DNA from: an uncultured Candidatus Cloacimonadota bacterium
GTDB lineage: Bacteria > Cloacimonadota > Cloacimonadia > Cloacimonadales > JAJBBL01
Direction: 5' to 3'
NCBI GenBank assembly: GCA_964464175.1
Contig: CAYXFD010000014.1
Location: 5,035-69,034, forward strand
Length of the DNA stretch: 64,000 nt
Each line of letters opens with the position of its first letter. Positions within the stretch are counted from its first letter, which is position 1. Positions 8,481-37,310 of this stretch are shown in pieces. Both the position numbers and the translations under genes were made by a program. The notes under the pieces are model-generated. The model was not told where the DNA came from. It was given only the letters and a program-made list of their open reading frames with translations, and ran no database searches.

Positions 8481-8864
8481 CGCAGAGGGAGAGGGGAGAC
8501 AAGTGAAGGAAAGCGGTTCCTTGTCAGAAATACTGAGATTGGACATGAAAAAATGTATATCAAGAAAAACCCCTTCTCAAGCTGGCAGAGAAGGGGTTTA
8601 ACTTCGCTGTTTTGACCACCTAAAACAGTCATTTAACAGCTTTTTTTATCGTATCATCTTTACCGATTATCTGGTAACGGGTAAGGGTGAAGCGACAACA
8701 CGATAATAACGACGGTTAGATGCTGCTTCGCTGTATGTTGTTACGGAACTATCCTGGTGCATCAACAATTGCCACCCTTGCAGCGGGTCAGATTCATTAG
8801 TTACCGGCTCAGATCTGGCATATATCTTGTAGGAATTGGCACCTTCCACGGTATTCCAGTTAAG
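8481..8864. repeat. 3' arm of duplicated module, copy 1 (last ~65 codons of giant gene, 3' UTR, terminator, ~85 bp beyond)
   Basis: Colinear high nucleotide similarity to 21712-22098, e.g. cgcagagggagaggggaga-aagtgaaggaaagcgg and taacgacggttagatgctgcttcgctgtatgttgtta. Confidence 0.92.
8565..8599 (-). terminator. Rho-independent terminator of giant gene 1
   Basis: 12-bp stem AAACCCCTTCTC / GAGAAGGGGTTT with a 9-nt loop, ending in a U-run on the minus strand, ~70 bp after the stop. Confidence 0.85.
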
Positions 8865-11800
8865 GTAGAAGACTCCATTCTCCAGGTAAGCGGAGCTGAT
8901 AATCGGAGTTGCCAGCACTGATGCGGTCTCTCTGGTGTGAATATTACTGAGATGGAAATTTATCTCCGGATCAATTCCACTCGGTCTTTCCATATAAAAA
9001 CCGAGTTTGACGGTTCCTTCCACTCCCGAAAGACTTACTATAACCTGTTCTCCGCCGGCTGCAACCGGATCACCATTCAAACCGGAAAGTGAATATATCG
9101 TGTTGCTTGCCGACCAGGTTACACCGTTATCAGAGGATACTACAACTGCAAAGAAGTCCTGCGTTCCAAGTTGAGCCGGTTCTTCGCTATTCAACTCTGT
9201 CACGGCAATATCGAAGACAAGTTCGTAGTCTGCCTCTAAATCGTTCATATCGATCGGAGGGCTTATGAACCAACGGTGAACTGATTCCGAGGTAGCAACT
9301 CTCAATCTGATCCTTGCTCCCCAATCATTTTCCGGATTATTGGCGAAAGATGCACTGACCCAATCTGCGCTTGAGCTTGGCGAAAACTCGCTGTTTTCAG
9401 TTAAAACTCCGAAAGGCTTTTCCCAGTCTGTCGGTGGGAAGGGCATCAGATTAACCGTAAATGGAACTGAAATTGTCGGATCGTAACCGGTTCCGGATAA
9501 AGATATCTGATAATCACTCCTCGGAACAGGAATGTCTTCAGTATTACCATGCAGGGAGGCAGAGGGAGTAATGGAAATGCGTTCGGAGAGTTCTTCACTG
9601 ATCACGATAGAGGCGTTTTTCGAACCTTCCGAGTCAGGGGAGAACCTTACTCCGATAACAGCAGTATCGTGGAGGATCAGATGAACGGTTTCTTCTAAAT
9701 TATCAAGGATGAATTGATCGGGATTATCTCCCGTCAGACTTATCTGCGAAGGATCTATAGTCAAAGTTCCTGTTCCTGCATTACTGATGATGAACTCCTG
9801 GATGACACTTTCCGTATAAAGATTCTGGACACCGAAATCCATCTCATTGAGCGAGACTTCCAATACCGGGTTTTCAGGTATCTCTGAAACCGAGAAATTA
9901 GTTACATAAAAGCGGTTATTGGGAGTTAATCCGAAAGGTCTTTCGGCATAAAAACCGATCTTTACGGTACCGGCAATGCTTTCCAGATCGATCGAAACAG
10001 TCTCGCCGGCAGGAGAAATCGTCTCGGGAAACTCCCAGCTTTTCAGGATATTGTTCTGACTCCAGGTAACGCCGTCATCATAAGAGATAACGACAGCGAT
10101 CAGGTCATTTTCACCTAAATCAGTTTGCTCGGAACCGGCGGAAGGGGTCAAAGCTATATCGAATTCTAAGCGCTTGTTACCGGAACCAAGATCTATGGGG
10201 GGTGTTACCAGCCAGTGATTTCTTGCCCCCACTATTTGAATATGAGCGCTGTTGTTAACTTCACCGGTGTTGGCAAAAGGATGATGGTTCCAGACGGAGG
10301 ATGCCGGAGTCAGTTCACTGTTTTCAGTCAGCAGTCCTGAGTATATTTTCCATTCGAGAGGGGGGAAGAGGGAGCCTGTAAACGCTTCTGTATGTGGCGG
10401 GATTATAGTTCCGTCATAACCAATACCTTCTAATGTTATATCGTATGAAGTTCTTTGAGTATTATCTGACCTGGGGTTTCTTGTCACATTGCTTGAGAAT
10501 CTCACCTCTTCACCAAACGGATCCTCTATTCTTAGTATTGCATTTTTTGCGCCAAGGGAGAGGGGAGAGAAAGAGACGGAGAAGCTGAATGATTCACTCA
10601 TGCCTAAATAGATCGTCTCTAAGAAGTTGTGAGAAAACTCAGCAGCATGGTCTCCAGTTAAAGAAATATCCTCAGGTCTGACTTCGAGTAAACCACCTCC
10701 TGTGTTTGTAATCGTGATCAGTTCGATATTGCTTGTCTGGTTGATATGAACTGCATTAAAGTCAAGATGATCAGGATTATATGAGAATTCAGGAATAACA
10801 GGGAAGGGTTCGAAGTTTACATTCAGAGTAAAAGGAGTAGTTTGTTGCCCTTGACTCGTCGAAACTATCAGATAATAGAAGCCGGGATCAAGAACAAAGC
10901 TTTCGATAGCAGCAGTTGAAGCAAGATTTACAGCATAGGCAAGAAGCGGTGCCGGAGAACCAGGATCAGGTGTATTCTGCATCAGGAAGATGCCCACCAT
11001 GCTCGTTCCAGTGATATCTGCAGAAAACCACCCTTCGTCAAAAACTTCAAACTGAGCGACAAAATCATTACCGCCAATAAACATGCTGTTAGGGAGAATA
11101 TCGGTACTGGAATAATCATTACCGTAATGCTCGGTATGATCCTGATAGTTAGTCAAGGGGAAGCTTTCAATGACAAATGGGTTCTCCCATGTTGAACCGG
11201 CAGGTCTTGGCAAAGCCTCTCCGGTGAGATTTATTGTGGAAAGACTTCTTTGGGAAGCACTGCGGTCTCTTTTACTTTGCTCAAGTGATATATTACTCTC
11301 CCTGAGCGGGATATCACTGCTAAAGATTTCTACATAAGCACTCTTTGGTCCTGCAGTATCAGGGGCAAAAGTTACTCCGATGTTGGCGGTGGTATCTCCG
11401 CTAAGTACTATTGTTTCGGTTATTTCGCTCAGAGTAAAGTCGAGATAGTCATCACCCATAAGCATCACATTCCCCGGGTTTATGGTAATTGTTCCATCTC
11501 CTGCATTGGAAAGAGTGAATTCCTGAACAGTCGATTCGCTGTTTACTCTGATCTCTCCAAAATCATGGGAACTGGGTGTTATGACAAGTTCGGGAGGTAA
11601 GGGCTGCCAAATCGTTATATCGTCTATTGCGAACCCTTCATCAGTTATAGATGAGTTAGAGAGAAATCTGAAACGGAACATGATCATTTCCTGATTGGCC
11701 AGTTCCGAAGGTAAAGCGGTTGAGTAAAGCGTCCAACCGTCGGAAGTGCCTGACCACATAGGCAGGGGGAAAGACCCGATGCCCTCATCATTGTTATAGA

Positions 11801-14800
11801 AACCTTCTGCTACATAAACATAATACCAGGAGGTACCATAATCTATCGAAGTCTCCAGAATAAGATAATCTTGATCTTCTTCCGTGCGGAAATTCATCCG
11901 GACAGAGAGGTGAGGGTTATCCAATTCGGAAAAATCAAAGACGGGAGAAACTAACCAAACATCCGAAAGATTTACATAATCGTATTCGAGAATGGTCATC
12001 CAGCAGGTCGTGCCGCTATACGCTGAATTGATCTCTGCTTGAGCAGGTGTGCCTAACTCCCAGAGATACATGCTGCTGTTTGCGTCTCCGCTCCAGTTGC
12101 CATGACCATTCTCGAAGTCTTCAAAGTAGGGGAATTGACTTATTCGAACAGGCTCTTCTTCATAGGTAAAAGACCAGATCGGACAATTCAGGGCATCTTC
12201 ACGGCTCCTGTTTCCGGTTCTCTCTCTGCCCGGAGGATCGGTCGTAGGGATTACCTGCCAGTAGTAAGTCTGACCAAAAGTGACTTCGAAGAAGGGACTT
12301 ATTTCATGGTAACCCGTTCCACCGACGACGTAGGTTTCGGCATAACCCTGCATATCGGGTTCTGTGCTTGCTCTGACTCTGAACCCGATGGGATCGGAGT
12401 AAGTCGGTGTATTTGAATAAATCCAGGCCAGTTTGGAATGAACCGATACGTTTTCAGAGTTATCGGCAGGGGAGGGGGTGTGAGCGATATAGGGGTATGG
12501 GGGATAATTGACTACTTTAACGTCATCAATGAACCAGTGGTTCAGATCATAGGGAAGACCTGAGAAGACCCAGGCTATGCGCAAACTGTCGGAGCCTACA
12601 CCATGCTCAAGGTCGGTCAGGGTCAAACGGACTGCCTCTTCTATTATAGAACTGCTGACGTTTTCCCATTCCTGAACCGGGTATTCGTCTAATCTGTCGA
12701 TTGCTAAGACTTTCAGGGTAAAAGAGTTAGAATAATGATCACAAGAGTGCTTAAAGGCAAGCTCAAGCTCAACGTAGTCAGATGTATCAAGATAAGGGGA
12801 GTATAAGTAGTATTCGCCTGATGGTTGGTGTGACCACTCATATCTCATCTCCGGTGCCTCTCCACCCGCTAAGCTGCTGTTTGTGACATACCAGTATGTA
12901 TCGTCTCTCTCCCAGTCCGCAGGGATCGTATTGAGAGCTACATCCGAAAAATCTTCATCGAGCAGGAGATTGACGATTCTTTCTATTCCCTCTCCGTAAA
13001 GGGAAACATTGTGAATATCTCTTGTCCGGTTATTATAGGCAGGTTGATTGCTTCTTACAACGGAAAGGTCTCTTGCTCCGTTAAGATTATCGTTTATTTG
13101 CAGGGATGCTTCTTTGAGTCCTATAGAAGTTGGAGCAAAACTTACCCAGACAAATACCGATTCTCCTGAGTATATAGGCAGAGTTTCAGTAAAGGGGATG
13201 TACAGATCGAACTGAGAAGCGTCTATACCGGTGATTTCGAGGTCGGAAGGAGATAATTCAATGACTCCGTATCCTGTATTTGTGATTTCAAATTCAACTT
13301 CTCTGGTGATCCTTCCCTCTTCTATCATACCGAAATCATAAGACAGAGGATAGATAGTCATTTCGGGAGTAGCTGCATCCCAGATTGAGATATCGTCAAT
13401 AGCGATGCCGTCGTAACTGACTGTGGAGTTGGAAACGAAACGAAATCTCAAATAAACTATGTATTCGTTTTCCAAACCGTCTAAGGAAGTACTGAATTCT
13501 CTCCATACTCCATCTATTCCGGGAGAGTTACCTGACCATTTAGGGGGTGATAATGAGCCGCTGCTGCCGGTATTATTGTAAAAGCCAGTATCCCCTGTTA
13601 CTTTCTGCCAGCTGTTTCCCCAGTCAACAGAAGACTCCAGTATCATTCCGTCATAGCTGTCTTCACACCAGATGTTTAACCAGACAGAGAACATAGGGAG
13701 ATGAACTTCCGAAAAGCTCAGCGGGGGAGAGATTAACCAGCTGTCGGCATTATGGTCATAGTCTGCATCTAAATAGGTCATCCAGGCATTAAAATCACTA
13801 TAGGCGCTATTGATGACACTGTTAAATTCATCAGGGCTTCCCAGTTGCCATTGATCATTGCCTGCGTCAGCACCACTATACCAGCCTGCAGCTCCGGCTT
13901 CAAAATTCTCGAAATACGGGTAGTCTGTCAGGACAGCTAAACCGGAAAGAGGAATCTCATGGATCTCTCTTGTTACGGCTTCTCTGGCAATTGGAGTTAT
14001 TTCCGTAATATTCAGATTACCGCTGCGGCTTAGATTGTCGTTTATACTTAGAGCAGCCGTTTTTTGACCTATGCTGCCGGGTAAGAAAGTAACACTGATA
14101 ACAGCAGATTCCGAATTATCAAGATAGGTAGTCTGAGTGATGTTATCAAGATAAAACTCTAAGGCATCGGGTCCGGTTATCTCAATATCCCAGGGATTTA
14201 AAACAATCGTACCATCTCCGAGATTAGTAATAAGGAATATCTGTTCATAAGAAACAGAACCCGGTTCTACTATCCCGAAATGGCCAAAGGGGGGAACGAT
14301 ATGAAATTGCGGAAATACAGGGTCCCAGTGAATAGTACCATAATACCCCGTGTCATGATAATCTTCTCCGGCAAACATTCCCGAGTAATTACTAAAGGTT
14401 ACCGAGTTCCAGGGATTGATACGCTGCACATTGTATAAACTGCCCCAGGTATTCTCAGGAAATCTAGCCCCGGTTATATTGTATTCTCCGGTTGCATTAA
14501 ATCGGAAAAGCGTTCCGCCACTTTCTCCGTTGCGGAAAGTACAGCCGGTGAAGGTGTGGTCGGTATCAACATAGGAACCGTTGCCAATATTGATACCGGT
14601 TAAATCCATCCGCTCGAAAACTGTGTATTCGGCTCCGATAAGAGAGTTATTATTTGCCGTAAAGGAATAATATCCGTCACTGCTGGTAATGAGAACCGGT
14701 TCTGCAGGAGTTCCGAGAGAGTAGAACTGCCCACCGGAATCAATAGTAAGAGATGAATTGTCAAACAAATCAAGAACAGAGTTGCCGGCTAAAGAGAATT

Positions 14801-17800
14801 TTGCATCAGCTCCGACAGTTAAACTACCTTCGAAAGCTAAAGTATGACCATTGAGGTTAATTAGTCCTGAGTCAAGGCTTAATGTCGTCCAACCGGTCAG
14901 ATTGACATCTCCGGAAATGTCGACAATACTTTCCTCACTTTTATCAATCAGTAAGGAACCCATCTGAGCATTTCCTTTCACATAAAAATCTATGTCGCTT
15001 TCATCTATGAGTTTAACTATACCGGTATCATCATTAAAGGAACCGTTTGACTCTACCAGAAAGTCTCCGTGGAATTCCTTTGCTCTTCCGGATAGTCCGT
15101 ATGACCAATCTCCATTTAGAATCTTGAAGTCACCCGTTACAATTGTGTCTTTGAAAGGCTTGACACTACCTCCGGTTTTATCGACAATAAGATCAGCAAA
15201 GAAGAAATGCGCAGCATAGTCGCTATTTAAGGTCTGATTCGTACTGCCGTTCAAAATCACTCTGTTGTTAGTTGCAGCATTGAAACCGGTAGGGTAAGAG
15301 AAGAGGTCATTTCCGTCATAGAGATTACCTGAGAGGCGGAGAGTGTTTAAGGTCTCTGAAGAAGTAATGTCCAGACCGCCACCATCCATTATGCCAAGGT
15401 TACCCCTAACATCAAGGGTAGAACCATCACCCAGCTTCATCAATCCGAAAGTGATGCCCAACCATCCTTTTACTGTCATTGTTGCGTCGTTCATTATCGT
15501 CAATTCTACCAGGTCAGGGGTACTCTTGTTAACTCCAACATTGTTGAATGATTCAGTGGAGACTTGAGCATTGCGGTCGAAATTGAAGTTAACTATGCCG
15601 TTCCCTTCAACAAACCTGTTTGCTCCAGTATCATTTATCCAGCTTCCTTTCAGATTGATAACAGAAGATTCATTTGAGCCGTTCAAATACCCTCCGGTAA
15701 GATTTACATTGCCGTTAACATTCAGGGTATGATTCAGAACACCAAAGGTACCTGAGTTTATCGTCAGATTATTGATAGTTATATCGCTGCTCAGATAACA
15801 CGCGCCTGAGCCGGTTTTGCTGATAATCAGATCATTAAGATAGTTTCCGGCAAGCATCTGTATGTCAGCAGACAAAGGACCGATCAGTTCAATAGCTCCG
15901 CTATTCTGTTGAAAACCAGGTTGCATAGCTCTGATACCCCAACCGACTTTTACCGTACCACCATTGATTGTGAGGTTACTTCCCGTTCCGAATTGCATAC
16001 CGCCGTTGGTGATTTCTAATGAACCTCCATTGATAACGGTCTCTCCGGCAAAGCTATGGTAAGCTCCGGTATAATCAGCCTGTATATCACAAAATCCGCT
16101 GTTGATAGTAAGAGTAGAGCTTGCTCCCTGAAAGAGGGTATCATAAATTGTTATACCTCCGCCAGTGATGAGTAGATTACCATATATAGCCAATTCTGAG
16201 CAGGATAGCGAACTTTCTTCGGAGAGCACAAAGTCTATACTGTTAGTGCTTACGGAAAAGATGCCTTCTACCCATAGGGAAGTGTTGTTCAGTGAAAGCC
16301 TGTTGTTGTCGGCAATAGTAAAGTCCCCGTTTACATCGATAAAACCATTTTCATTGCTGACAGTATTATTGATCTGTGGTGAGACAGGATTGTTTTTTGC
16401 TATTAGCACATTCCCGAATTTCTGTGAACCGGTAATACTATGGATTGCTTTTGGTTCAGTACCTTTGAAAACAACTAAGTTGTTTCCTTGTAAAGATGCT
16501 AAGCCCCCATTGAAGTACCAGTCACCGTAAACATCAATCTGACCGTTATTTACATCTGCAGATGAACCGCTAAGCCATTTGACATCCCGCATTACTTTGA
16601 GCAGATCGTTTGCTGAGTTCATTCTAAGAATACCGGTTATGAGCAGATCATTTTCAATAGTGACTGTCTTGCCGCTGATGTCCAATATTCCTGAGTAGAT
16701 ATCGAGATCATTATCAATTGCAATGTTTGATAAAAGGCTTACGACGGGATTAGATCTATCCTGATTGTTATCTCGTTCTACTCTGGAAGCACTGCCTTTG
16801 TTGATTATCAGATTGTTGAAGGCAGTGGCGTTTGCTGAGAAGATTGAGCTGTTCTCTGCTCCGGCAATTTCTATAGTTCCATAAGCAAAATAGAGATTCA
16901 ATCTTTCGTTTCTGAAGTTCCCATAGGAAATAATTTTCCCTCCTGAGATACCGTTAACCAGACTGTAACCATTATCCTCGAAAGTTATCCCGTTATCTAT
17001 GATGTTGAGATTACCTCCGCTCATTGTCAGGTTACAGTTACGATTGAATGGTATTCTGGCATCTCCGTTGCCGCCATAGATATTCAGGTTACCATAAGAA
17101 ATATTGAAATCAGCTTCCAGATTGATTGTTTGGGCTGAATCCTGATAAAGATTTATGGTTCCGGACTCGAGAATATAGCCCCCTTTTACTCCGTTCCCTT
17201 CGAGATCATAAGCTGTAAAAATGCCGTTGTTCCGTACTCTGATACCACCGGATGTCCATTTGTAGATATTGCACTCAACTTCGGAATCATTAATAATCAG
17301 GTTACCACTGCTGCTGTTCTCAAGTGTATCAAAGCTGACGTCCTGAATGATCTGATCTCCTGTTCCGCTGAATTTTACAGTGCTGTTAGCTCCGGCGAAA
17401 TTGGTCGGTAATCCTGACAGGTTGTGCCAGTTACCCTTTATCTCAATAATTCTGTTATGACCAAACATTACCGTTTGATTACGAAACTCAATATTGCCGT
17501 GTAATAAGATATTGGAGGCAAGAGTGATGAATGAGTTTTCCAGAGCCAGATTGTTTATTCTACTGCCGACAGAGATTGAGAAAGCACTATCGGAGATACC
17601 TTTGAGGATTAGTTCGCCGGAGTTGAAAACGATATCTCCAGTAACCTGATAAAGAGTATTGATGGTTATATCACCATTATAGTCGTTTTGAAAACAGCCT
17701 TCTGCAGAGACTACTAATCCCTGCTGTAAAAATAGATCAGAAGTTGAGTCAGATAAGTAGATAGCCCTGGCACTACCTGATTTATTGACAGTTAGCTTCC

Positions 17801-20693: not shown

Positions 20694-21092
20694 CTATTGT
20701 GAGATGTTGTTCCCGAATTCTGTTTTTTGGGTCTGTTCATCATTCTCCTGTTCTGGCTTAGGGGAGAATAGTGAGTTCAATTGATTCAAACGGTAGGGGT
20801 GTTTCAGAGAGGTAAAGACTCCATAACGGACATTATCTATCGTATTGCAAAGACCTGAATCGCTCACAATAACAACTCTTACAGCGGGATAGGTCTTGTT
20901 AATGTAACGGATAATGCTGAAATCATCAAGATTCGATAAACAATAAAGCACAGCCTCAATAGCTCCTCCGGCGAGTATCTGAAAAATTGCCTGCTTAGTT
21001 ACTGCTGCATAGACTTCACACTTATAGGTCTGGAAGTAGTCTCTCAATTCTGTTTCTTCAGACTGATTTGCTTTAGCAATGAGAATCTTCAT
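20694..21092 (-). CDS. Degenerate (Asp-less) response-regulator receiver domain protein, copy 1
   Basis: CheY-like pattern MKILIA...AVLY(C)...YPAVRVVIVS...G...LKHPY; acidic pocket and phospho-Asp absent; TAAGGA SD; near-identical duplicate at 32829-33227. Confidence 0.78.
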   Translation of the reverse strand: MKILIAKANQSEETELRDYFQTYKCEVYAAVTKQAIFQILAGGAIEAVLYCLSNLDDFSIIRYINKTYPAVRVVIVSDSGLCNTIDNVRYGVFTSLKHPYRLNQLNSLFSPKPEQENDEQTQKTEFGNNISQ

Positions 21093-21173: not shown

Positions 21174-21190
21174 ACCAACATTTGTGCCAA
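21174..21190 (-). promoter_or_regulatory. Putative sigma-54 (-24/-12) promoter, module 1
   Basis: Minus strand reads TTGGCAC-AAATG-TTGGT versus consensus TGGCAC-N5-TTGCW (-12 imperfect); same position in copy 2; sigma-54 activator encoded in the locus. Confidence 0.68.
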
Positions 21191-21210
21191 TTGGTTATTG
21201 TGTTCTGAGG

Positions 21211-21220: not shown

Positions 21221-21254
21221 AGGATTTATCGATAGTTCAGGTATTTTTCCTCAT

Positions 21255-21359
21255 TATCCGGTTTCGGATAGTGGTACGGCAATATAGCAGCGTAAGTAGT
21301 AATGGAGTTGCAAGTTAAGGTTTTTATCCGAATTCGGATAACATATCCGATTTCGGATA
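21255..21359. promoter_or_regulatory. Three palindromic TATCCG-N4-CGGATA sites, putative bEBP enhancer (UAS), module 1
   Basis: Perfect inverted repeats at 21255-21270, 21325-21340 and 21344-21359, about 65-170 bp upstream of the -24 box. Confidence 0.78.
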
Positions 21360-21711: not shown

Positions 21712-22098
21712 CGCAGAGGGAGAGGGGAGAGAAGTGAAGGAAAGCGGCTCTTTGTCACATTTAATCAGAGTTGGCATGAAAATGTATATATCAAGAAAAA
21801 ACCCCTTCTCCAGCTGGCAGAGAAGGGGTTTTCAGTTTGCTGTTTTGACCAGCTAAAAACAGTCCAATACAGCGTTATTTTATTAGATCATGTCTACCGG
21901 TTATCTGGTAACGGGTAAAGGTGAAGCTACTACCCGGTAATAACGACGGTTAGATGCTGCTTCGCTGTATGTTGTTAAGGAACTATCCTGCTGCATCAAC
22001 AATTGCCACCCATTCAGTGGGTCAGTTTCATTAGTTACCGGCTCAGACCTGGCATATATCTTGTAGGAGTTGGCACCTTCCACAGCATCCCAGCTTAA
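21712..22098. repeat. 3' arm of duplicated module, copy 2
   Basis: Homologous to 8481-8864. Confidence 0.92.
21796..21832 (-). terminator. Rho-independent terminator of giant gene 2
   Basis: Stem AAAACCCCTTCTC / GAGAAGGGGTTTT ending in a U-run on the minus strand. Confidence 0.85.
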
Positions 22099-25000
22099 AT
22101 AGACGGTACTCCCTGCTACACTGATAGTAACATTCTGAGGGGATTGAAGAGCTCCGGAAACTTGCGGAGTTGCTTCAACGGTGTTAGAATGTCCCGATTC
22201 TCCTTCTTCGTAAACTGCCGTAACGTAGTACTCGTAAGTAACGCCATTTACAACATTATTATCCGTATATTCCGTTCCTTCCACCGGTTCTTCGTTGATC
22301 TGTTCACTATTCCGGTAAACATTGTAACCCAGGAAAGAGATGCGGGAGCTTCTCTGTTGGAAATAGTCCTTATCTGAGTTCAAATTTATATCGTTTCCGT
22401 CCGGCCTTACAGGAGGGTTAATGTCATCCCAGCTCAGATCAACGGCTCCGTCCCTCGCTGTAGCTGCAAGGTTTTGAGGAACCGGTAAACTGAGAGTGGT
22501 AAAAGACATAACTTCACTCCAGGCTCTGCCTCTCGGATTGTCTGCAAAGGCAATGTAGTAAATGTCACTTCCCTGTTCCAGGTTTTCGGCTAAGGCGGAA
22601 AAACTCTCCCCGGGACTGCTGGAATTAACTAATAAACCAGAATTAGCCGGGTCAGGATCGGTGTCATAGTAGAAACCTTTTTCCAGGATGGGGAGATCTC
22701 CCGTTGAGGTTATTTGAGCATTTAATACTGCCTCAAAATAGTTAACCTCTGTAGCAGCATTTGTTATAACAGCAGGAGAGTCTCCACCCAGAATAATCCC
22801 ATCCAGATGCCAGCCGGTTATGTTATAGCTATTACCGTCGAAAACCCAGGCAAGTCGCAGATTGTCAGCTCCCACTCCATGTTCTGCTGTGGTCAAAAGA
22901 TAATCCAGTTCTTGAGCAGCGAGACTGGAATCCACATTCAACCATTCCTGAATCAGGTAGCTGTCAGTATCAACGATGGAATAGATCCGGAGATCGAATA
23001 CACCGTCAAGATGATCCACCTGCTGTTTGAACGTTAGATCGATCTGACTGAGACCGGAGGTATCGAAAAGAGGAGAGAGGAGAGTCACTTCACCGATGAT
23101 GTGAGGATCGAAACTGAAGAGCATTTCAGGGCTTTCAGAACCGGCTTGGCTGGTGCCGCTGACCCACCAGTTGAGATGACTGCTTTCCCAGCCTGCGGGG
23201 AGGCTTCCCTCATCTTCGATACTGAAGCCTTCATAGTAGGGAACATTTTCTGTTACAAGTTGATAGCCAAAACCGGTTATCCCAATGGAATGAATTTCGC
23301 GCTCAAATGACCTGCTGTGGTTTTTGATAAATAATTCCCGACCCGGTGCACTTCCCTCAACAATATTGATCACGGCTTCTTTTTGTCCGGTTTCATTGGG
23401 TCTGAATTTAGCTCCGATCGTTGTACTCTGACCGGAACTCAATTCAACAGGAGAACTTAGGTTGATCAGTTCAAATTCAGCCGGATGCCAGCCAGCGAGA
23501 GAAATATCATCCGGACTGAGATACAACAATCCTTCTCCCGTATTGGTTATCTCAAAATACTGAACAGGTGAACTCTCGTCCACTTCTACTCTCCCGAAGT
23601 CATGTGAGGAAGGATTGAGAGTAAGAATCGAATACTCACGTTCCCAAATCCGGATATCATCAATAGCAAATCCTTCTTCTGTGACCGATTCGTTAGAGGC
23701 AAAACGGAAACGGAGCCGTACCTGCGGTTGGTGTGCCAAAGATGAAAGAGAAGTGCTGAATTCTGTCCAGCCTCCGCTATTGCCAGACCATTTGGGTACG
23801 TTAAGCGGTCCCAGTAAAGAGGTATTGTTGTAAAATCCTGTATCGGCTTCCACATAGAACCAGTTGCTGCCGCCGTCTATTGTAGCTTCCAGGATCATAC
23901 CGTCATAATCAGGCTCAGTCTGATGATTTATCCGGACGGAAAACATCGGCTCATCCAAAGCTGTAAAATCAAAGAGTGGGGAACGGAGCCAGATATCAGC
24001 ACCGTTCATATAATTTCCCCCTAAGTTTGTCATCCAGGCATAATCTCCGCTATAGGCACTGTTGATAACCGTCTGAGACGGTTCTCCCTGCTGCCAGATA
24101 TTCATACCGGAGATCCTGCCCCCTTTCCAGCCGCCGTCACTCAGTTCGAAATCTTCGAAATAGGGAAAAATTTCAATAGCAGTTGCATCTGCCAGGAGGG
24201 TGAATGACCAGATAGGGCAGTTTTCCGCCGAACTGCGGATGGAAGCATTTTCTCGCAGCACATTATACTGCAAGGGGTGTGATAACTCCGGATTCTCGTC
24301 CCGAAGGAGACTGCGGGTGTGTTCTTCTCCGGAAGCTGATGGGATGACCTGCCAGTAATAGGTCTGACCATATTCAAGTGTGAAAAATGGAGGCATGGAA
24401 TGGGTTCCGGGACCACCCCAAAGTACATCTGATTGATAGGTCGCGAGGGTTGGATCTGTTCCGGCTCTGATCTGATAAACTACCGGATCGGTATAACCCT
24501 CCTGTGAAGTGTAAGTCCATTCCAAAAAAGTCTCCATAGGAACATCGATAGCTCCGTCTTCAGGTTGCGGAGAATGAGCTGTTGCGGGCGGAGCGATGGT
24601 GTTCCAGATGCGGAAATCGTCAATAGCGATTCCTTCATCTACATAAGCTTCACCGTAATCTCCGTCGGAAGTAAAACGAAAACAGAACCAAACCTGAGGT
24701 TCATTTGCTAAAAACGGTAAAGAAGTACTGTACTCTGTCCAGATACCGTCAACTTCTTCTGTTCTGCCGGACCAGTTAGGATGGCTGGGAGCCGGTAAGC
24801 TCATCCGGTTGTAGAATCCGTCATCTCCAATCACTTGCTGCCAACTGCTGTTATCGAGAGAGTATTCCAGGATCATTCCGTCGTAAGAGGCTTCACTCCA
24901 GATATTCAGCCAGACCGAGAGGTTGGGATCATCCAATTCGCTGAAATCGAAAACCGGAGATTTGAGCCAGGTATCAGCTTCATTTTCATAGTTTTGATCT

Positions 25001-33585: not shown

Positions 33586-34971
33586 TTATAAAATGAGGGT
33601 TAGGTTGTGTTTTTTTAATCTCCTTTCAAGGGTCTGCCAGGTAATATTGAGGAGTTTAGCCGCCTGAAGTTTGTTATTATCTGTATGCTTAAGGGCTCGT
33701 TGAATTGTTTCTCTTTCAATATCTTCCAAATCAAACCGCGAATTCTGATCATAGATATTATCTCCCTTATCATCGGGAAACAGAGATTCAAAAACGAAAT
33801 GTTTTTTCTGCAGTTTGGAGCCTTTACACAGGATAACAGCCCGTTCAACCATATTTTTAAGTTCCCGGACATTTCCGGGAAAATGGTATCTGTTCAGTTT
33901 ATCCATCAGAGATGTTTCTATACCGGTAATCGGTTTATTTGTTTTAATGGCAAAGGCCTTAACAAACTGTTCTATCAAAAGAGGTATATCTTCCTTTCTT
34001 TCTCTCAGAGGGGGGATGAATATCTTATAGGTGTTTATCCTATGATAAAGATCCTGTCTGAATTTCCCTTCCTTGAGCAATTGAACGATATCTTGGTTCG
34101 TGGCGGTCATTATTCTGGTGTTGAATCTGATATCCGAATTTGAGCCGAGTCTTCTTACTTTTCCATCTTCGGAGATCCGGAGAAGCTTAGCCTGCATCAT
34201 TGGCTGCATATCACCGATCTCATCGAGGAAGAGGGTTCCTTTATCGGCTATCTCAAACCATCCCGGTTTATTGGTCAGAGCATTAGTAAAAGCTCCTTTT
34301 ACATAACCGAAAAACTCGCTTTCAAAGAGGTTTTCAGGGATAGCAGCACAATTGACAGCATGGAAAAAACCGTTCTTTCTGGGACTGAGATGGTGAATAG
34401 TACGGGCTATGAGCTCTTTTCCGGTTCCACTCTCACCTGTGATCATAACAGGCAGATCAGGATTCTCTGCTGCCAGTTTGATCATTTCTACTACTTTCAG
34501 GATAGCCTGGCTTTTTCCGATAATGCGAAGACCTACATTGTCGAAGAGTTCTTCCAGAAGAGAGTCGTAATTCTTTCTGATCTGAGAGTAATTACGGGAA
34601 AGATATATGTATCTTTTGGTTCGTTCAATGGCATTCATTACTTCCGAGAGTCTGACCGGTTTGTTAAAAAAATCGGCTGCCCCATATCTCATCGCTTCGA
34701 TGGCGACTTCCATACTACCCTGACCGGTTATGATCAGTACCTCGATATCAGGATCAAATTCTTTGATCTCCTGAAGTACCGTCAGTCCGTCCTTTTCCGG
34801 GAGGTTAATGTCAACTATTGCAATATCGATCTGGTGTTTTCGGTAGATTTTTTCGGCTTCATAAGGTGTACCGGCATTATAAGTAAGATAACCGTTATCA
34901 TTAAAAAAATCGACGAGTTCTTCCCGAATTCGTTTTTCGTCATCAAGAACAAGAATGCTCAGCTTTTCCAT
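33586..34971 (-). CDS. Sigma-54-dependent NtrC/AtoC-family response regulator (REC-AAA+-Fis HTH)
   Basis: LDDE...IVDINLP receiver; GESGTGKE Walker A; ESEFFG..KGAFTNA loop; LFLDEIG; FRQDLYHR; FPGNVREL; AAKLLNI HTH. Confidence 0.96.
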   Translation of the reverse strand: MEKLSILVLDDEKRIREELVDFFNDNGYLTYNAGTPYEAEKIYRKHQIDIAIVDINLPEKDGLTVLQEIKEFDPDIEVLIITGQGSMEVAIEAMRYGAADFFNKPVRLSEVMNAIERTKRYIYLSRNYSQIRKNYDSLLEELFDNVGLRIIGKSQAILKVVEMIKLAAENPDLPVMITGESGTGKELIARTIHHLSPRKNGFFHAVNCAAIPENLFESEFFGYVKGAFTNALTNKPGWFEIADKGTLFLDEIGDMQPMMQAKLLRISEDGKVRRLGSNSDIRFNTRIMTATNQDIVQLLKEGKFRQDLYHRINTYKIFIPPLRERKEDIPLLIEQFVKAFAIKTNKPITGIETSLMDKLNRYHFPGNVRELKNMVERAVILCKGSKLQKKHFVFESLFPDDKGDNIYDQNSRFDLEDIERETIQRALKHTDNNKLQAAKLLNITWQTLERRLKKHNLTLIL

Positions 34972-34973
34972 GG

Positions 34974-37310
34974 TTAAAACTCCTTAAGTAATGCGAAACA
35001 GATAGTGATTTCTGTAAAAAGGTTAACTTCACTCCGGACAGAAATCTCACCATCCATTTCCCGGATAATACCGTAACTGATCGATAAACCTAAACCTGTT
35101 CCCTTATCAGGTGTTTTGGTAGTAAAGAAAGGATCATAGATCTTATCGATAATCTCTTTCGGTATCCCTGTACCGTTGTCAGTTATCTCTATTACTGCCT
35201 GCTTCTCCTTGATCTTTGTGCTTATCCTGATACTCTTTTTATGATTGGATTCACTCCCGGCAGCGGCTTTTTCTTCTATTGCATCTTTGGCATTACTTAC
35301 CAGGTTCAATAAAACTTGTTCCAGTTTGTATCTATCACCGGAGATCGGAAGTTCGCTCTTGATTAATCTTAGTTCTAAATCAATTCCACTTTTTGAGATT
35401 GTATGATGGATCAGGCTAACAGCACTTTTCACAACTTCATTTAATTCAATCTGTTCAACCAGACTGTCATTCTGATTTCTGGAGAAAAGTCTCACATGTT
35501 CGATGATCTTTCTTATCCGCAGAATGTCTTCTTGAGTATTGCTGCATTTATTTGTTAAATAGTCATTACTAAGGAGTCCCAACTTTACTTTGTTCTGAAT
35601 GTTATCAATGCTCATGGAGATTGCTGATAGTGGTTGATTGATCTCGTGGGCTATTCCGGCAGCAAAATTTCCCAGAGATTCCAATTTCGATTTCTGGGCA
35701 ATAATTTGCTGATGTTTCTGATAATCAGCTACTGCTTTATTGATCTTGGTTTCGAGTTCCTGATTCAGCGTTTCGAGCTCTTTCTGGACTTGCCTTCTCT
35801 TTTTTACCTCTTTCTGCTTTGCTCTATAAAGCAGAGCCAGACTCAATGCAACAGCTCCGATAGCCAGGGTGAGATAAAGAATTCTTAACTTGGCTCTGAT
35901 CTGTTGCGCTATTTTTTCTTCCTGAATCTGCTGTTGAGTTTTTAGCACAAAGATCTCTTCAGTCTTTTTTTCGGTTTCGAAACGAACCATCATCTCAGCT
36001 ATTACATCCTTCTTTTCGATAGCATAAACATCCAGGTCTAACTCTATATAGTCTTTGTAAGCCTCGACAGCCCGCCTATAATCACCCTGCTCTTCATAGA
36101 TTATAGCAAATTGTCTTAGATTATTCAGCTGCATTTTCTGATCGTTAATCAAAAGGGAATATTCATAAGATTTTTCTGCATTCAGCAATGCTTCAGTTAA
36201 ATCTCCGCTTAAGATCAGCAATTCACTGATATTGTTGTGAGTAGTAGCAATACCTTCATAGTCATTCAAGCGTTCCTTAATACTAATAGCTTCGTAATAA
36301 TAACTTAGAGCTTCAGAGAATTCTCTTCTTCTCAGGTAGGTGTTTCCAAGATTATTTAATACTCTGCTCTGCTCTCTGAGCATATTATAAGTAACAAAGA
36401 TATCAAGAGCTTCTTGATTATATGTTAAAGCTGTTTCAGTTCGATTAAGATCATTGTAGGTAGAGCCAAGATTTGCTTTGACTTGTGCAGCATTGATCGT
36501 ATCTCCAATTGTGCTATACAATTCCAGAGCTTTTTCGTAGTATGCTATGGCTTTAACATAATCTGTGGCTGTGTAATAAAGGTTACCAAGATTAGTATTC
36601 GCTGCCGCTAATTCGTTGTCATCTCCATAAGTCTCTTTGATTCTCAGGGATATGATATATGCTTCACCCGCTGCTGCTGTATCTCCGGATTTCAAAAGGG
36701 CATTACCGAGATTATTGAAAATTGCTGCTGAGAGTTTCGGATGCTGAGTTTGATCAGTCATTTCAGCAGCAGCCTGAAAGAAGTGAATAGCCTGTTGATA
36801 CTCCTGCTGTTCCCAGTAAATGAGTCCGATACTATTCAGGGAGGAACTTTCATCCTCTCTGGTGGGAAGGTCTTGCCGATAGGAGAGAGATTTGTGCAGG
36901 TTTTCCAGAGCAGATGAATAACTACCGGTATTAGTATAAGACCTGCCCAAATTATAATAAAGATCTCCCAGTAGTTTGTTATCTGAAGACTCGTGAGCCG
37001 GAGCTAAAGCAGAGGAATAATAGTTGAGTGCTGGCTCCATTTCTCCCCTGATAAAATGAATGTTTCCTTTAATCTTGAGGGCTAATCCTATCTCATAATC
37101 GAGTTTCAAGGCGGCTGCCAGTTTTTCAGCCCGTTCAGCGTACTCAGCAGCACGGTCAAGATCGCTTTGTAATGATTCTTCAGCAATTTGCAGTAAGTAT
37201 CCCGTTTCCAGTTCCTGGTCGGGGTAGTCATCCAAGCGGTCAGATTCAACCGAAGTGAAGAGCATTCCCAGCGATAGGGTAAAGATACAAACAAGCATTA
37301 TGCATTTCAT
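34974..37310 (-). CDS. Membrane sensor histidine kinase with extracytoplasmic TPR array (probable start ATG 37310; ORF track uses TTG 37346)
   Basis: N-terminal hydrophobic segment; about 8 TPRs (NNLGN motifs); TM helix; AGIAHEINQPL H-box; NLVSNAKDA, DNGTG, DPFFTTK, GTGLGL; ends 2 bp before the NtrC gene. Confidence 0.93.
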   Translation of the reverse strand: MKCIMLVCIFTLSLGMLFTSVESDRLDDYPDQELETGYLLQIAEESLQSDLDRAAEYAERAEKLAAALKLDYEIGLALKIKGNIHFIRGEMEPALNYYSSALAPAHESSDNKLLGDLYYNLGRSYTNTGSYSSALENLHKSLSYRQDLPTREDESSSLNSIGLIYWEQQEYQQAIHFFQAAAEMTDQTQHPKLSAAIFNNLGNALLKSGDTAAAGEAYIISLRIKETYGDDNELAAANTNLGNLYYTATDYVKAIAYYEKALELYSTIGDTINAAQVKANLGSTYNDLNRTETALTYNQEALDIFVTYNMLREQSRVLNNLGNTYLRRREFSEALSYYYEAISIKERLNDYEGIATTHNNISELLILSGDLTEALLNAEKSYEYSLLINDQKMQLNNLRQFAIIYEEQGDYRRAVEAYKDYIELDLDVYAIEKKDVIAEMMVRFETEKKTEEIFVLKTQQQIQEEKIAQQIRAKLRILYLTLAIGAVALSLALLYRAKQKEVKKRRQVQKELETLNQELETKINKAVADYQKHQQIIAQKSKLESLGNFAAGIAHEINQPLSAISMSIDNIQNKVKLGLLSNDYLTNKCSNTQEDILRIRKIIEHVRLFSRNQNDSLVEQIELNEVVKSAVSLIHHTISKSGIDLELRLIKSELPISGDRYKLEQVLLNLVSNAKDAIEEKAAAGSESNHKKSIRISTKIKEKQAVIEITDNGTGIPKEIIDKIYDPFFTTKTPDKGTGLGLSISYGIIREMDGEISVRSEVNLFTEITICFALLKEF

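What the first reader, a model, noticed from the sequence alone, without database searches (positions are those of the whole stretch)
8481..37310. Sigma-54/TPR-kinase-controlled tandem modules, each pairing a pseudo-receiver with a giant secreted peptidase-adhesin
Seen: a TPR-sensor kinase and NtrC-type activator, then two back-to-back units (~33545-21710 and ~21410-8480). Each unit has three TATCCG-N4-CGGATA palindromes, an IHF-like site, a TGGCAC-N5-TTG promoter, a 132-aa Asp-less receiver gene, a 3.5-4k aa secreted protein and a terminator. Established: bacterial enhancer-binding proteins bind tandem palindromes ~80-200 bp upstream of -24/-12 promoters, often with IHF looping. Inference: this is a self-contained circuit in which an extracytoplasmic protein or peptide cue, read by the TPR array, switches on two very costly ~400 kDa surface polyproteins. 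I do not recognise this arrangement as a described system.
Basis: partly seen in the sequence, partly recalled or inferred. Interest (0 to 1): 0.9.

Follow-up and report, generated by a model that had tools for sequence, protein, structure and literature searches.

The report
Sigma-54 circuit with pseudo-receiver genes
A membrane sensor kinase and its sigma-54 activator appear to switch on two neighbouring operons, each starting with a small, catalytically dead receiver-like protein followed by a giant secreted protein; the small protein belongs to an undescribed family that probably feeds back on the kinase.

Summary
A kinase with a predicted periplasmic TPR array and an NtrC-type activator lie upstream of two tandem units. 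Each unit has three TATCCG-N4-CGGATA palindromes, a -24/-12 box, a 132-aa gene, a 3530- or 3981-aa secreted protein and a strong terminator. rpoN is present. Only the IHF-like site is unsupported.

The small protein is a receiver fold that lacks the acidic pair, the phospho-acceptor Asp and the Lys. It belongs to a family of small stand-alone proteins that no Pfam or NCBIfam model captures above its cut-off.

In 232 Cloacimonadota genomes I found 30 such genes in 25 genomes. 29 of 30 have a TGGCAC-N5-TTGC-type box within 130 nt upstream (controls 1/30 and 4/30). 20 of the 27 loci outside this genome and G040 have a kinase and activator alongside. Sensor domains (TPR or PAS) and cargo (C39-like or M6 peptidase giants, FG-GAP, beta-helix, S74-tailed proteins) vary. 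The constant core is kinase, activator, sigma-54 promoter and pseudo-receiver.

Best reading: a local sigma-54 regulon whose first product feeds back on the kinase, as FixT and Osp do. The circuit is well supported by comparison. The feedback step is inferred (helix alpha1 signal; weak complex score). It is a new variant of a known kind.

The parts
34974..37346 (-). Sensor histidine kinase, 790 aa from the listed TTG start (probable ATG start at 37310). Layout: hydrophobic segment at about aa 11-35, TPR array, hydrophobic segment at about aa 485-509, HisKA, HATPase_c.
   Evidence: Pfam TPR_12 3e-43, HisKA 3.8e-8, HATPase_c 4.9e-22. Hydropathy places the TPR array between two TM-like segments. 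The His of AHEINQPL is invariant in 16 orthologs.
33586..34971 (-). NtrC-type sigma-54 activator (bacterial enhancer-binding protein), 461 aa. Its start overlaps the kinase's stop by 4 nt.
   Evidence: Response_reg 88 bits, Sigma54_activat 212 bits, AAA_lid_14 and HTH_8. Walker A GESGTGK and D54 are present; the loop reads GAFTNA where 8 of 10 orthologs have GAFTGA.
33389..33492 (.). Upstream activating sequence of unit 2: three palindromes at 33477-33492, 33459-33474 (1 mismatch) and 33389-33404.
   Evidence: Spacing of 18 and 70 bp compares with 19 and 70 in unit 1 and 18 and 72 in G040.
33309..33323 (-). -24/-12 box of unit 2, TGGCACTGTTATTGT, 96 nt upstream of the small gene's ATG.
32829..33227 (-). 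Pseudo-receiver gene 2 (132 aa, P0002).
   Evidence: 84-86% identical to P0001. From the alignment, counted by eye, 7 differences in the first 324 nt (5 synonymous, 2 not).
21901..32493 (-). Giant secreted protein 2 (3530 aa). Order of domains: signal-like N-terminus; degenerate C39-like domain (Cys to Ser, HDPN to YSSG); long central repeat region; MAM-like 'choice-of-anchor J' x3; 'choice-of-anchor D'; FN3-like C-terminal module.
   Evidence: 47% identical over its whole length to the giant of G134.
21798..21832 (-). Intrinsic terminator of unit 2 (GC-rich hairpin followed by a T-run).
   Evidence: -23.4 kcal/mol, z -3.72, 0 of 200 shuffles fold as well.
21255..21359 (.). Upstream activating sequence of unit 1: three perfect palindromes at 21344-21359, 21325-21340 and 21255-21270.
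21175..21189 (-). -24/-12 box of unit 1, TGGCACAAATGTTGG, 97 nt upstream of the small gene's ATG.
20694..21092 (-). Pseudo-receiver gene 1 (132 aa, P0001). It has a (beta-alpha)5 receiver fold, Cys at the phospho-acceptor position, no acidic pair, no Lys, and a disordered tail after about residue 110.
8667..20612 (-). Giant secreted protein 1 (3981 aa). Order of domains: signal-like N-terminus; C39-like cysteine-peptidase domain with Cys and His; central region with beta-helix-like leads; MAM-like 'choice-of-anchor J' x5; 'choice-of-anchor D' x5; FN3-like C-terminal module.
8567..8599 (-). Intrinsic terminator of unit 1, nearly identical in sequence to that of unit 2.
   Evidence: -34.7 kcal/mol for the 107-nt stretch, z -4.92.

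Best explanation
This is a self-contained, local sigma-54 regulon of a Cloacimonadota bacterium.

Proposed mechanism:
1. A membrane histidine kinase with a predicted periplasmic TPR array senses an unknown extracytoplasmic cue.
2. The kinase phosphorylates the adjacent NtrC-type activator.
3. The activator binds the three TATCCG-N4-CGGATA palindromes about 100-190 bp upstream of two sigma-54 promoters.
4. It then drives two tandem operons, each encoding a small pseudo-receiver followed by a giant Sec-exported protein with a cysteine-peptidase-like head, and each closed by a terminator.
5. The pseudo-receiver is a receiver fold that cannot be phosphorylated. As the first product of the induced operon it most likely docks on the kinase's DHp/CA core through helix alpha1 and modulates kinase output. 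This would be a feedback loop of the FixT/Osp type, most simply negative, limiting production of the very costly giants.

What rests on what: the gene content, motifs, fold and conserved linkage are shown by computation. Activator binding and sigma-54 dependence are inferred from comparison. Pseudo-receiver docking, and the sign of the feedback, are inference.

My own odds: circuit about 0.85; pseudo-receiver acting on the kinase about 0.45.
For: CIRCUIT
- Domains of the kinase and activator.
- rpoN present: PF04552 at 164.7 bits in a 523-aa open frame.
- Palindromes: 6 at up to 1 mismatch in the two intergenic regions against 0.06 expected in the window. Genome-wide the exact 16-mer occurs 5 times here and once inside an ORF.
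- G040, from another family of the order, has the same layout: kinase (787 aa), activator (458 aa), three palindromes spaced 18 and 72 bp, TGGAAT-N5-TTGA, small gene (56% identical), 2086-aa giant.
- 29 of 30 small genes found in 232 genomes have a TGG-N9-TG box within 130 nt upstream. Controls: 1 of 30 on the antisense strand and 4 of 30 at -430..-300. The column consensus is TGGCAC-N5-TTGC.
- Strict TGGCAC-N5-TTG occurs only 16 times in the genome. 7 of these lie outside ORFs of 200 aa or more, including the two here.
- The HTH helix and the half-site change together: NITWQ/NISWQ with (A/C)TCCG in 6 loci, NITRQ with GCCCG in 2, NISRS with GTTCG/GACCG in 3 of 4, NISW[YH] with ATGCG/CGTCG in 2.
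- Terminators. No hairpin lies between small gene 1 and giant 1.

PSEUDO-RECEIVER
- AlphaFold model: (beta-alpha)5, pLDDT 71.7.
- Foldseek top hits are Spo0F and the FleR and NtrC1 receiver domains, at TM about 0.70.
- Aligned with the activator's own receiver, DD is replaced by KA/QP, D54 by C/N next to a 2-residue deletion, and the Lys is lost.
- The family comprises 133 representatives at E <= 1e-3, mostly 105-140 aa.
- Kinase and activator are adjacent in 20 of 27 loci outside G000 and G040.

FEEDBACK ON THE KINASE
- Similarity between the small protein and its own locus's receiver exceeds similarity to other loci's receivers only in helix alpha1: 0.271 against 0.216, with 32 of 5000 permutations as high. 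No such signal appears in alpha3, alpha4-beta5, beta5-alpha5 or the whole length. That alpha1 is the main kinase-specificity surface is recalled knowledge.
- Complex prediction, kinase residues 520-790 as a dimer plus small protein residues 1-112: verdict 'weak support'. Score 0.48; best of 3 controls 0.00. The mark was reached by 58 of 80 solved complexes and 2 of 110 mismatched pairs, but a score of 0.60 or under was seen in only 7 of those 80 solved complexes and in both mismatches that passed. The runs agree in at least 84% of contacts and the partner's pLDDT is at least 75.
- Precedents: FixT inhibits FixL and is induced by the system it inhibits (abstract and section 13 read). Osp lacks the acidic pair and the Lys, binds CckA's transmitter domain, and is induced by CtrA (abstract and passages read).
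Against: - There are no expression, transcription-start or binding data: no RNA run was listed.
- The window's -12 elements read TTGG and TTGT rather than TTGC.
- The activator's sigma-54 contact loop is GAFTNA, where 8 of 10 orthologs have GAFTGA.
- The complex score is weak by the tool's own calibration. It may also reflect likeness to solved kinase-receiver complexes, and it used my own alignments with a dimer, unlike the calibration set.
- The alpha1 signal rests on 17 pairs, many of them close kin. Local gene conversion between the activator gene and the small gene could produce it too.
- 4 small-gene loci (L046, L054, L058, L062) have no kinase or activator in the 5 kb or more fetched upstream.
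- In 8 loci of one genus the small gene precedes the activator gene and no cargo follows. The neighbouring C25 peptidase gene there has no sigma-54 box.
- 5 further loci have no large ORF behind the small gene.
- The cue is unknown.
Confidence: 0.55

Rival explanations
1. The circuit is the same, but the pseudo-receiver acts on the activator rather than the kinase. It would pair with the activator's receiver domain, or touch its AAA+ ring, and so hold it off or on. That makes it an anti-activator or co-activator, in the manner of PspA acting on PspF (recalled).
For: The family profile matches the receiver domains of NtrC-type activators next best (50-75 bits), so it derives from them. NtrC-family receivers dimerise through alpha4-beta5 (passage read in PMC12632262). 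In 8 loci of one genus the small gene and the activator gene share one sigma-54 promoter, which would give roughly matched amounts of both.
Against: Similarity between the small protein and its own locus's receiver is not raised in alpha4-beta5 (0.152 against 0.159) or beta5-alpha5 (0.176 against 0.175), only in alpha1. Co-evolving partners need not resemble each other, so this counts only weakly. No complex job was available to test this pair.
Confidence: 0.2
2. The small protein serves the cargo, not the signalling pathway. It would be a cytoplasmic chaperone, export pilot or maturation factor for the giant secreted protein encoded just downstream.
For: The small gene lies immediately upstream of, and is probably co-transcribed with, an ORF of 900 aa or more in 12 of 27 other loci, plus G040 and both window units. 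The gaps are often under 30 nt, or the genes overlap.
Against: The cargo families are unrelated to one another: C39-like and M6 giants, FG-GAP, beta-helix/PMP/PKD, and S74-tailed proteins. 8 loci have the activator gene downstream and no cargo, and 5 have no large ORF. The fold is a receiver domain closest to activator receivers.
Confidence: 0.08
3. The two operons are not controlled by this kinase/activator pair or by sigma-54. The palindromes would bind another regulator, and the -24/-12 boxes would be chance or vestigial.
For: The -12 elements deviate from the consensus (TTGG, TTGT). In the window alone the box pattern is not significant (5 matches against 2.09 expected). The activator has a GAFTNA loop. 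A weak sigma-70-like match overlaps the box.
Against: 29 of 30 loci have the box at a fixed distance, against 1 of 30 and 4 of 30 in controls. The half-site changes together with the HTH helix. Palindrome clusters occur nowhere else in the genome. The palindrome arrangement is conserved in G040.
Confidence: 0.05
4. The small genes are decaying remnants of a duplicated activator receiver domain and have no function.
For: All catalytic residues are lost. The C-terminal tails diverge freely.
Against: Intact ORFs occur in 25 of 232 genomes, spanning 7 families in two orders. Family-specific motifs are conserved (ELxEFF, YINxNYP). Between the two window copies, 5 of the 7 differences in the first 324 nt are synonymous (read by eye from the alignment). 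The position behind a sigma-54 box is conserved.
Confidence: 0.03

Closest known systems
Classical sigma-54 two-component regulons (NtrB/NtrC, DctB/DctD, ZraS/ZraR; recalled)
   Same: A histidine kinase plus a receiver-AAA+-HTH_8 activator. Tandem palindromic upstream sites about 100-190 bp from a -24/-12 promoter. The regulon is local and sits next to the regulator genes.
   Different: The sensor is a predicted periplasmic TPR array. The targets are 3.5-4k aa secreted proteins. Each target operon opens with a stand-alone pseudo-receiver. No IHF-type site was found.
FixT, single-domain receiver that inhibits the kinase FixL (PMC7078487; abstract and section 13 read)
   Same: A small stand-alone receiver-type protein that is induced by the system it regulates and inhibits that system's kinase, giving negative feedback.
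   Different: FixT is alphaproteobacterial, binds an Fe-S cluster through a 4-Cys motif, and is not linked to sigma-54. No conserved Cys motif appears in this family's alignment. Sequence homology to FixT was not tested here.
Osp, response-regulator-like inhibitor of CckA in Rhodobacter sphaeroides (PMC9430884; abstract and passages read)
   Same: A (beta-alpha)5 protein lacking the acidic pair and the Lys, and not phosphorylated. It binds the kinase's transmitter domain. Its gene is activated by the pathway's own regulator.
   Different: Osp keeps the Asp (D51). It acts in a phosphorelay with a CtrA-type regulator, without sigma-54. The family here has lost the Asp as well, and sits directly behind the activator-dependent promoter as the first gene of a cargo operon.
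Pseudo-receiver / aspartate-less receiver domains in general (PMC12632262, passages read; PMC4395418, search listing only)
   Same: A receiver fold lacking the residues needed for phosphotransfer.
   Different: Every example named in the one passage I read that lists any (CsgD, FleQ, RitR, VpsT) is, from memory, fused to an output domain. The family here is stand-alone, falls below Pfam's Response_reg cut-off for the window's proteins, and has a fixed genomic context.
PspA-PspF (recalled)
   Same: The first gene of a sigma-54 operon encodes a protein that feeds back on the operon's own activation machinery.
   Different: PspA is a coiled-coil protein that binds the activator's AAA+ domain. There is no receiver fold and no kinase.

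Membership tests
NtrC-type bacterial enhancer-binding protein | AAA+ sigma-54 interaction domain with Walker A | tested here: met
   PF00158 at 212.3 bits (cut-off 20.2), matching profile positions 1-167 of 168. GESGTGK at residue 179.
NtrC-type bacterial enhancer-binding protein | GAFTGA sigma-54 contact loop (motif recalled) | tested here: inconclusive
   The window protein reads GAFTNA. F and T are invariant in 10 orthologs; 8 of 10 read GAFTGA and 1 reads GAFTDA.
NtrC-type bacterial enhancer-binding protein | Phosphorylatable receiver domain and Fis-type HTH | tested here: met
   Response_reg 88.3 bits and HTH_8 47.2 bits. DD and D54 are invariant; T82 is nearly invariant (at least 90%) and is Thr in the window protein; K104 is invariant.
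Sigma-54 promoter | GG at -24 and GC at -12 with fixed spacing (TGGCAC-N5-TTGC; recalled) | tested here: inconclusive
   TGGCAC and the spacing are met in both units, but the -12 elements read TTGG and TTGT. Among the 29 loci with a box, the last position is C in 19.
Sigma-54 promoter | rpoN present in the genome | tested here: met
   PF04552 at 164.7 bits in a 523-aa frame on contig C6. RpoN-box variant SRRVIQKYR.
Sigma-54 promoter | Transcription start about 12 nt downstream of the -12 element, dependent on rpoN | not testable with these tools
   No RNA run was listed.
Receiver domain (Response_reg, PF00072) | (beta-alpha)5 CheY-like fold | tested here: met
   The AlphaFold model has five strand-helix pairs, pLDDT 71.7. 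120 PDB matches at E <= 1e-3; the top 50 I saw were all receiver domains, at TM 0.61-0.72.
Receiver domain (Response_reg, PF00072) | Score above Pfam's gathering threshold | tested here: not met
   P0001 scores 12.8 bits against a cut-off of 30.2. No hit at E <= 1e-3 for P0001, P0002 or the G040 ortholog. 27 of 38 family members match at E <= 1, best 4.4e-9.
Receiver domain (Response_reg, PF00072) | Acidic pair after beta1, phospho-acceptor Asp at the end of beta3, Lys at the end of beta5 | tested here: not met
   KA/QP replaces DD. C51 (N, K, H, S and others in relatives; possibly Glu in L049) replaces the Asp, next to a 2-residue deletion. The Lys is not in register. It is therefore a pseudo-receiver.
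FixT/Osp-type feedback inhibitors of histidine kinases | Stand-alone receiver-like protein whose gene is induced by its own two-component system | tested here: inconclusive
   It is stand-alone, and it sits behind the activator's palindromes and a sigma-54 box. Induction itself has not been measured.
FixT/Osp-type feedback inhibitors of histidine kinases | Direct binding to, and inhibition of, the kinase's transmitter domain | not testable with these tools
   There are only the weak complex score (0.48 against a best control of 0.00) and the alpha1 similarity signal.
FixT/Osp-type feedback inhibitors of histidine kinases | Sequence homology to FixT or Osp | not tested
Peptidase_C39_2 (papain-fold cysteine peptidases) | Domain match plus catalytic Cys and His | tested here: inconclusive
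   Giant 1 scores 22.5 bits against a cut-off of 24, and has Cys in YGCSPT and His in HSVTAMGY. All 7 homologs match at E <= 0.1, best 4.6e-11. Giant 2 scores E 0.049 and has Ser in place of the Cys. The structure model of this region is too poor to use.
Type IX secretion cargo | C-terminal Por_Secre_tail domain | tested here: not met
   116 matches in the genome, none inside either giant. No such hit in the NCBIfam scan of the giants.
IHF-assisted enhancer looping | IHF consensus site between the upstream sites and the promoter | tested here: not met
   No WATCAANNNNTTR match at up to 1 mismatch in 21190-21254 or 33324-33388.

The most novel reading that the evidence does not exclude
Kinase, sigma-54 activator and decoy receiver form a portable three-part expression cassette that Cloacimonadota plug in front of whichever large surface or secreted protein they need. 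The decoy receiver is an obligatory timing or limiting element.

In tandem units the near-identical head (palindromes, promoter, small gene) and tail (last ~65 codons, terminator, flank) are kept alike by gene conversion. They act as recombination handles through which highly diverged giant-gene bodies, and even their peptidase heads (C39-like or M6), are swapped. That would be a cassette system for varying surface proteins under constant regulation.
Probability: 0.15. Interest if true: 0.75.

Novelty: new variant of a known kind. Interest (0 to 1): 0.55.

Why it matters
Pseudo-receivers are common, but how most of them work is described as a mystery in the 2025 perspective (abstract as shown in the search listing, PMC12632262). 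This family offers a clean, repeated natural experiment:
- a stand-alone pseudo-receiver with a fixed genomic logic, sitting behind a sigma-54 promoter and next to one kinase and one activator;
- many diverged examples available for co-evolution analysis;
- a direct biochemical test, namely whether it changes the kinase's activities.

It also shows how an uncultured, protein-degrading lineage may ration 400-kDa secreted proteins. The window's two units give an example of regulatory heads and tails kept alike while the genes between them diverge. If the feedback role holds, FixT/Osp-type control extends from Alphaproteobacteria to sigma-54 systems of a distant phylum.

Tried and rejected
- **IHF site.** The consensus search found nothing between the palindromes and the promoters, so I dropped it.
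- **Terminator scanner.** It found none. Direct folding showed both hairpins; the scanner's criteria (loop limited to 3-8 nt) probably explain the miss.
- **Palindrome on contig C16.** It lies inside a 516-aa ORF and stands alone, so I treat it as chance.
- **ORFs 32506-32808 (100 aa) and 21460-21777 (105 aa).** Neither has a Pfam hit. Both lie in the spacer or in the duplicated 3' flank. I consider them spurious.
- **Single-sequence word search.** It returned only the window's own two proteins. The full profile search was needed to find the family.
- **Giant 1 N-terminal model.** Mean pLDDT is 58 and under 55 across the putative peptidase core. Foldseek gave 0 matches at E <= 1e-3 and a best TM of 0.12, so it was uninformative. 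A sequence search of the PDB gave nothing at E below 0.3.
- **Atlas search of giant 1's centre.** The top hit was an unnamed cluster (0.94). Beta-helix families scored only 0.80-0.82, which are leads rather than evidence.
- **RNA runs.** No RNA holder was listed.
- **Rfam.** No family reached its threshold in 8300-37500. The leaders fold no better than shuffled sequence.
- **Type B loci.** No sigma-54 box lies upstream of the C25 peptidase gene cluster. Matches are at chance level (6 against 5.5 expected, and 8 against 6.0) and none falls in an intergenic gap.
- **T9SS tail.** Absent from both giants.
- **Supplementary files of papers.** Not consulted (closed). The supplementary tables of PMC12632262 may list stand-alone pseudo-receivers that I could not see.

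Full report
**What is in the window**

On the minus strand, from 37346 down to about 8560, lie a kinase gene, an activator gene and two tandem units.

The kinase is a 790-aa histidine kinase with TPR repeats, HisKA and HATPase_c. The activator is a 461-aa NtrC-type protein with Response_reg, a Sigma54_activat domain at 212 bits, and HTH_8. The kinase has two hydrophobic segments, at about residues 11-35 and 485-509, with the whole TPR array between them and the kinase core after the second. The TPR array is therefore predicted to be extracytoplasmic.

The activator has an intact Walker A and the receiver Asp. Its sigma-54 contact loop reads GAFTNA, where 8 of 10 orthologs read GAFTGA.

The genome is 2.9 Mb in 56 contigs, with 42% G+C. 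It encodes sigma-54 (PF04552 at 164.7 bits) and seven clear sigma-54 activators plus one weak match.

**The two units**

Each unit has these parts in order:
- three TATCCG-N4-CGGATA palindromes (one of the six has a single mismatch);
- a TGGCAC-N5-TTG box;
- a 132-aa gene;
- a giant gene of 3530 or 3981 aa with a hydrophobic signal-like N-terminus;
- a strong hairpin plus T-run terminator.

The palindromes are far beyond chance: 7 window matches at up to 1 mismatch against 0.06 expected. Genome-wide the exact 16-mer occurs 5 times here and once inside an ORF elsewhere.

Measured from the -12 element, the palindrome centres lie roughly 100, 170 and 190 bp upstream. This is read from the coordinates.

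The claimed IHF-like site is not supported.

**Unit ends are alike, unit bodies are not**

The heads of the two units, 21409-20744 and 33543-32879, are 88% identical. The first 324 nt of the small genes differ at only 7 positions, 5 of them synonymous (read by eye from the alignment).

The tails, 8863-8365 and 22098-21584, are 81% identical. They comprise the last ~65 codons, the terminator and about 200 nt beyond it.

The giants between them are only 27% identical over their first ~1800 residues, and 40-50% identical in the repeated C-terminal modules.

Giant 2 is 47% identical over its whole length to the giant of G134, which belongs to another family of the order. The gene bodies therefore diverged long ago, while the heads and tails were homogenised, or exchanged, recently.

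Genome G169 also has two tandem units. Their heads are conserved, with small genes roughly 85% identical by eye in an alignment whose overall column identity is 81%. Their giants are 39% identical.

**The small protein**

It has no Pfam hit at E <= 1e-3. Its AlphaFold model is a (beta-alpha)5 fold with a disordered tail (pLDDT 71.7). The best PDB matches are Spo0F and the FleR and NtrC1 receiver domains, at TM about 0.70.

Aligned with the activator's own receiver domain, it lacks three things:
- the acidic pair;
- the phospho-acceptor Asp, replaced by Cys51 in the window and by N, K, H, S and others in relatives, next to a 2-residue deletion;
- the conserved Lys.

It is therefore a pseudo-receiver.

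A profile of three sequences found 133 representatives at E <= 1e-3 among 1.84 billion cluster representatives, mostly stand-alone proteins of 105-140 aa. Pfam's Response_reg model matches 27 of 38 family members at E <= 1, but gives the window's protein only 12.8 bits against a cut-off of 30.2.

Of the 9 proteins listed by the profile word search, one carried a source name, 'DNA-binding NtrC family response regulator', for a 113-aa protein.

**Conserved linkage**

A record title for G040 names a Candidatus Cloacimonadaceae MAG, which places the organism in Cloacimonadota.

Searching 232 genomes of the phylum with the family profile gave 30 strong hits (at least 84.8 bits, in small open frames) in 25 genomes. 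They fall in 6 families of the window's order and one family of another order. Weaker hits of 50-75 bits are the receiver domains of 450-490 aa activators.

I fetched about 20 kb around the 27 hits outside G000 and G040 and scored them with the window's proteins.
- **Kinase and activator:** 20 of 27 have both beside the small gene. Of the other 7, two end within 400 nt upstream (L048, L064), one is the second unit of a tandem pair (L050), and four have neither gene in the 5 kb or more fetched (L046, L054, L058, L062).
- **What follows the small gene:** an ORF of 900 aa or more in 12 loci; the activator gene in 8 loci, all from one genus, in the order kinase, small gene, activator; the contig end in 2; neither in 5.
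- **G040** repeats the window's layout exactly, including three palindromes spaced 18 and 72 bp.

**Promoter and enhancer evidence from comparison**

I used one relaxed pattern (TGG-N9-TG) and a fixed window of 130 nt upstream of the 5' end of each profile hit. 29 of 30 small genes have a box, mostly 37-65 nt upstream of that anchor. Controls gave 1 of 30 on the antisense strand and 4 of 30 at -430..-300.

The column counts give TGG(C21/29)A(C23/29)-N5-(T23/29)TG(C19/29), which matches the recalled sigma-54 consensus. Several loci are close kin, so the effective number is smaller than 30.

The palindrome half-site changes together with the recognition helix of the activator's HTH, in four groups. 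This is what one expects if the activator binds these sites.

Strict TGGCAC-N5-TTG boxes are rare in the genome: 16 in all, 7 of them outside long ORFs. One of those lies just downstream of another activator gene on contig C1.

**What varies**

The sensor domain is TPR in the window-like loci but PAS, or receiver plus PAS, in others.

The cargo varies as well:
- giants with a C39-like head, or with an M6 metalloprotease head (G040: TIGR03296, 7e-39);
- FG-GAP proteins with T9SS tails;
- a beta-helix/PMP/PKD protein with a T9SS tail;
- proteins ending in a Peptidase_S74 domain.

In the genus with the kinase, small gene, activator order, the neighbouring gene is a gingipain-like C25 peptidase with no sigma-54 box of its own.

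The constant core is therefore kinase core, activator, sigma-54 promoter and pseudo-receiver.

**The giants**

The N-terminal domain matches Peptidase_C39_2 in all 7 homologs tested (best E 4.6e-11). Giant 1 itself scores 22.5 bits against a cut-off of 24.

Cys is present in 6 of 7, His in 7 of 7, and the downstream motif (HDPN, or HDSN in two) in 6 of 7. Giant 2 is the exception on both counts, with Cys to Ser and HDPN to YSSG, so it is probably not a cysteine peptidase.

The C-terminal halves carry MAM-like 'choice-of-anchor J' and 'choice-of-anchor D' modules. Beta-helix character of the centre is only a lead.

Neither giant has a T9SS tail, although the genome has 116 such matches. Instead both end in an FN3-like module of about 70 aa that recurs at 10 or more other places in the genome.

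**How the pseudo-receiver most likely works**

Its fixed partners are a kinase and an activator, not a cargo type. That points to a signalling role.

Two results lean towards the kinase as its target. First, similarity to its own locus's activator receiver is raised only in helix alpha1: 0.271 against 0.216, with 32 of 5000 permutations as high, over 17 pairs, and no signal in four other regions. Helix alpha1 is the main kinase-docking determinant (recalled). Second, a complex prediction with the kinase's DHp/CA dimer gave 'weak support': score 0.48 against a best of 3 controls of 0.00, with run agreement of at least 84% and partner pLDDT of at least 75. The tool states that a pass at 0.60 or under is more often wrong than right unless the guess was likely beforehand, and that solved kinase-receiver complexes may be remembered.

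Both results are hints, not proof.

Precedents exist. FixT inhibits FixL and is induced by the FixLJ pathway. Osp lacks the acidic pair and the Lys, is not phosphorylated, binds CckA's transmitter domain, and is induced by CtrA.

By analogy, I propose that the pseudo-receiver, made first from the induced operon, competes for or re-sets the kinase and so limits or shapes expression of the giants. Action on the activator instead remains a live rival.

**Novelty**

I found no paper combining pseudo-receiver, sigma-54 and histidine kinase. None combined Cloacimonadota with sigma-54. Three papers mention both pseudo-receiver and enhancer-binding protein, none on this topic judging by title and abstract. 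Two mention Cloacimonadota with two-component systems, both unrelated.

The regulatory logic is a known kind. The pseudo-receiver family, its fixed place behind a sigma-54 promoter, and the homogenised heads and tails around diverged giant genes are new variants.

The script machine was lost.

Noticed in passing
window 8667-8880 and 21901-22110 (- strand); genome G000 contigs C20, C5, C26, C18, C4, C23, C2: The last ~70 aa of both giants form an FN3-like module (LSW..V.GA.SY.IYA ... R[FY]YR[VI].AS). It recurs by tblastn (E from 1e-12 to 0.1) at 10 other places in the genome, several of them running to a similar ...AS... end. It may be a lineage-specific C-terminal sorting or anchoring domain distinct from the T9SS tail.
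   Followed up: partly
genome G000, whole: There are 116 matches to the T9SS C-terminal sorting domain (TIGR04183) in a 2.9-Mb genome. This is a very large predicted T9SS secretome, with open frames of up to 6262 aa.
   Followed up: no
window 8365-8560 vs 21584-21790: About 200 nt beyond each terminator are still about 80% identical between the two units. The duplicated or converted tract therefore extends past the transcription unit. ORF 21460-21777 (105 aa, no Pfam hit) lies within it.
   Followed up: partly
window 32494-32828: Unit 2 has a 335-nt spacer between the small gene and giant 2, against 81 nt in unit 1. It holds a 100-aa ORF with no Pfam hit, no terminator-like site and no Rfam match.
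   Followed up: partly
window 37429-39303 (-): A 624-aa protein made almost entirely of TPR repeats, with an N-terminal hydrophobic segment, lies directly upstream of the kinase on the same strand. It is not conserved at this position in G040, where a PAS-adenylate cyclase sits instead.
   Followed up: no
window 5213-8317 (-) and 3-5009 (-): A tricorn-like S41 peptidase (1034 aa, with PD40, Tricorn_C1, PDZ and S41 domains) and a further ORF of more than 1669 aa lie just downstream of unit 1's terminator. The region is rich in large proteolytic or surface proteins.
   Followed up: no
G000:C1:268577 (-): A canonical TGGCACAGCTCTTGC box lies just downstream of another activator gene (C1:269288-269788). 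It is followed after 40 nt by a 119-aa ORF that is not receiver-like by eye. This is a second 'activator, sigma-54 box, small gene' arrangement in the same genome.
   Followed up: no
L014:13358-19618 (G040) vs window giants: Homologous giants carry different N-terminal peptidase heads: an M6 metalloprotease (HExxH) in G040, and a C39-like cysteine peptidase in the window. Both heads sit on the same central scaffold, which is 31-32% identical, implying a head swap.
   Followed up: partly
L056:9047-13972 and L054:1027-4206: In two genomes the cargo behind the small gene ends in a Peptidase_S74 domain (the intramolecular chaperone of endosialidase), a module typical of phage tail-fibre-like proteins.
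   Followed up: no
L049 (G152:C5), small protein: By eye in the printed sequence, one family member may have Glu at the position of the phospho-acceptor Asp (DLVILEF against DIVILDI), which could mimic the phosphorylated state. I did not check this in an alignment.
   Followed up: no
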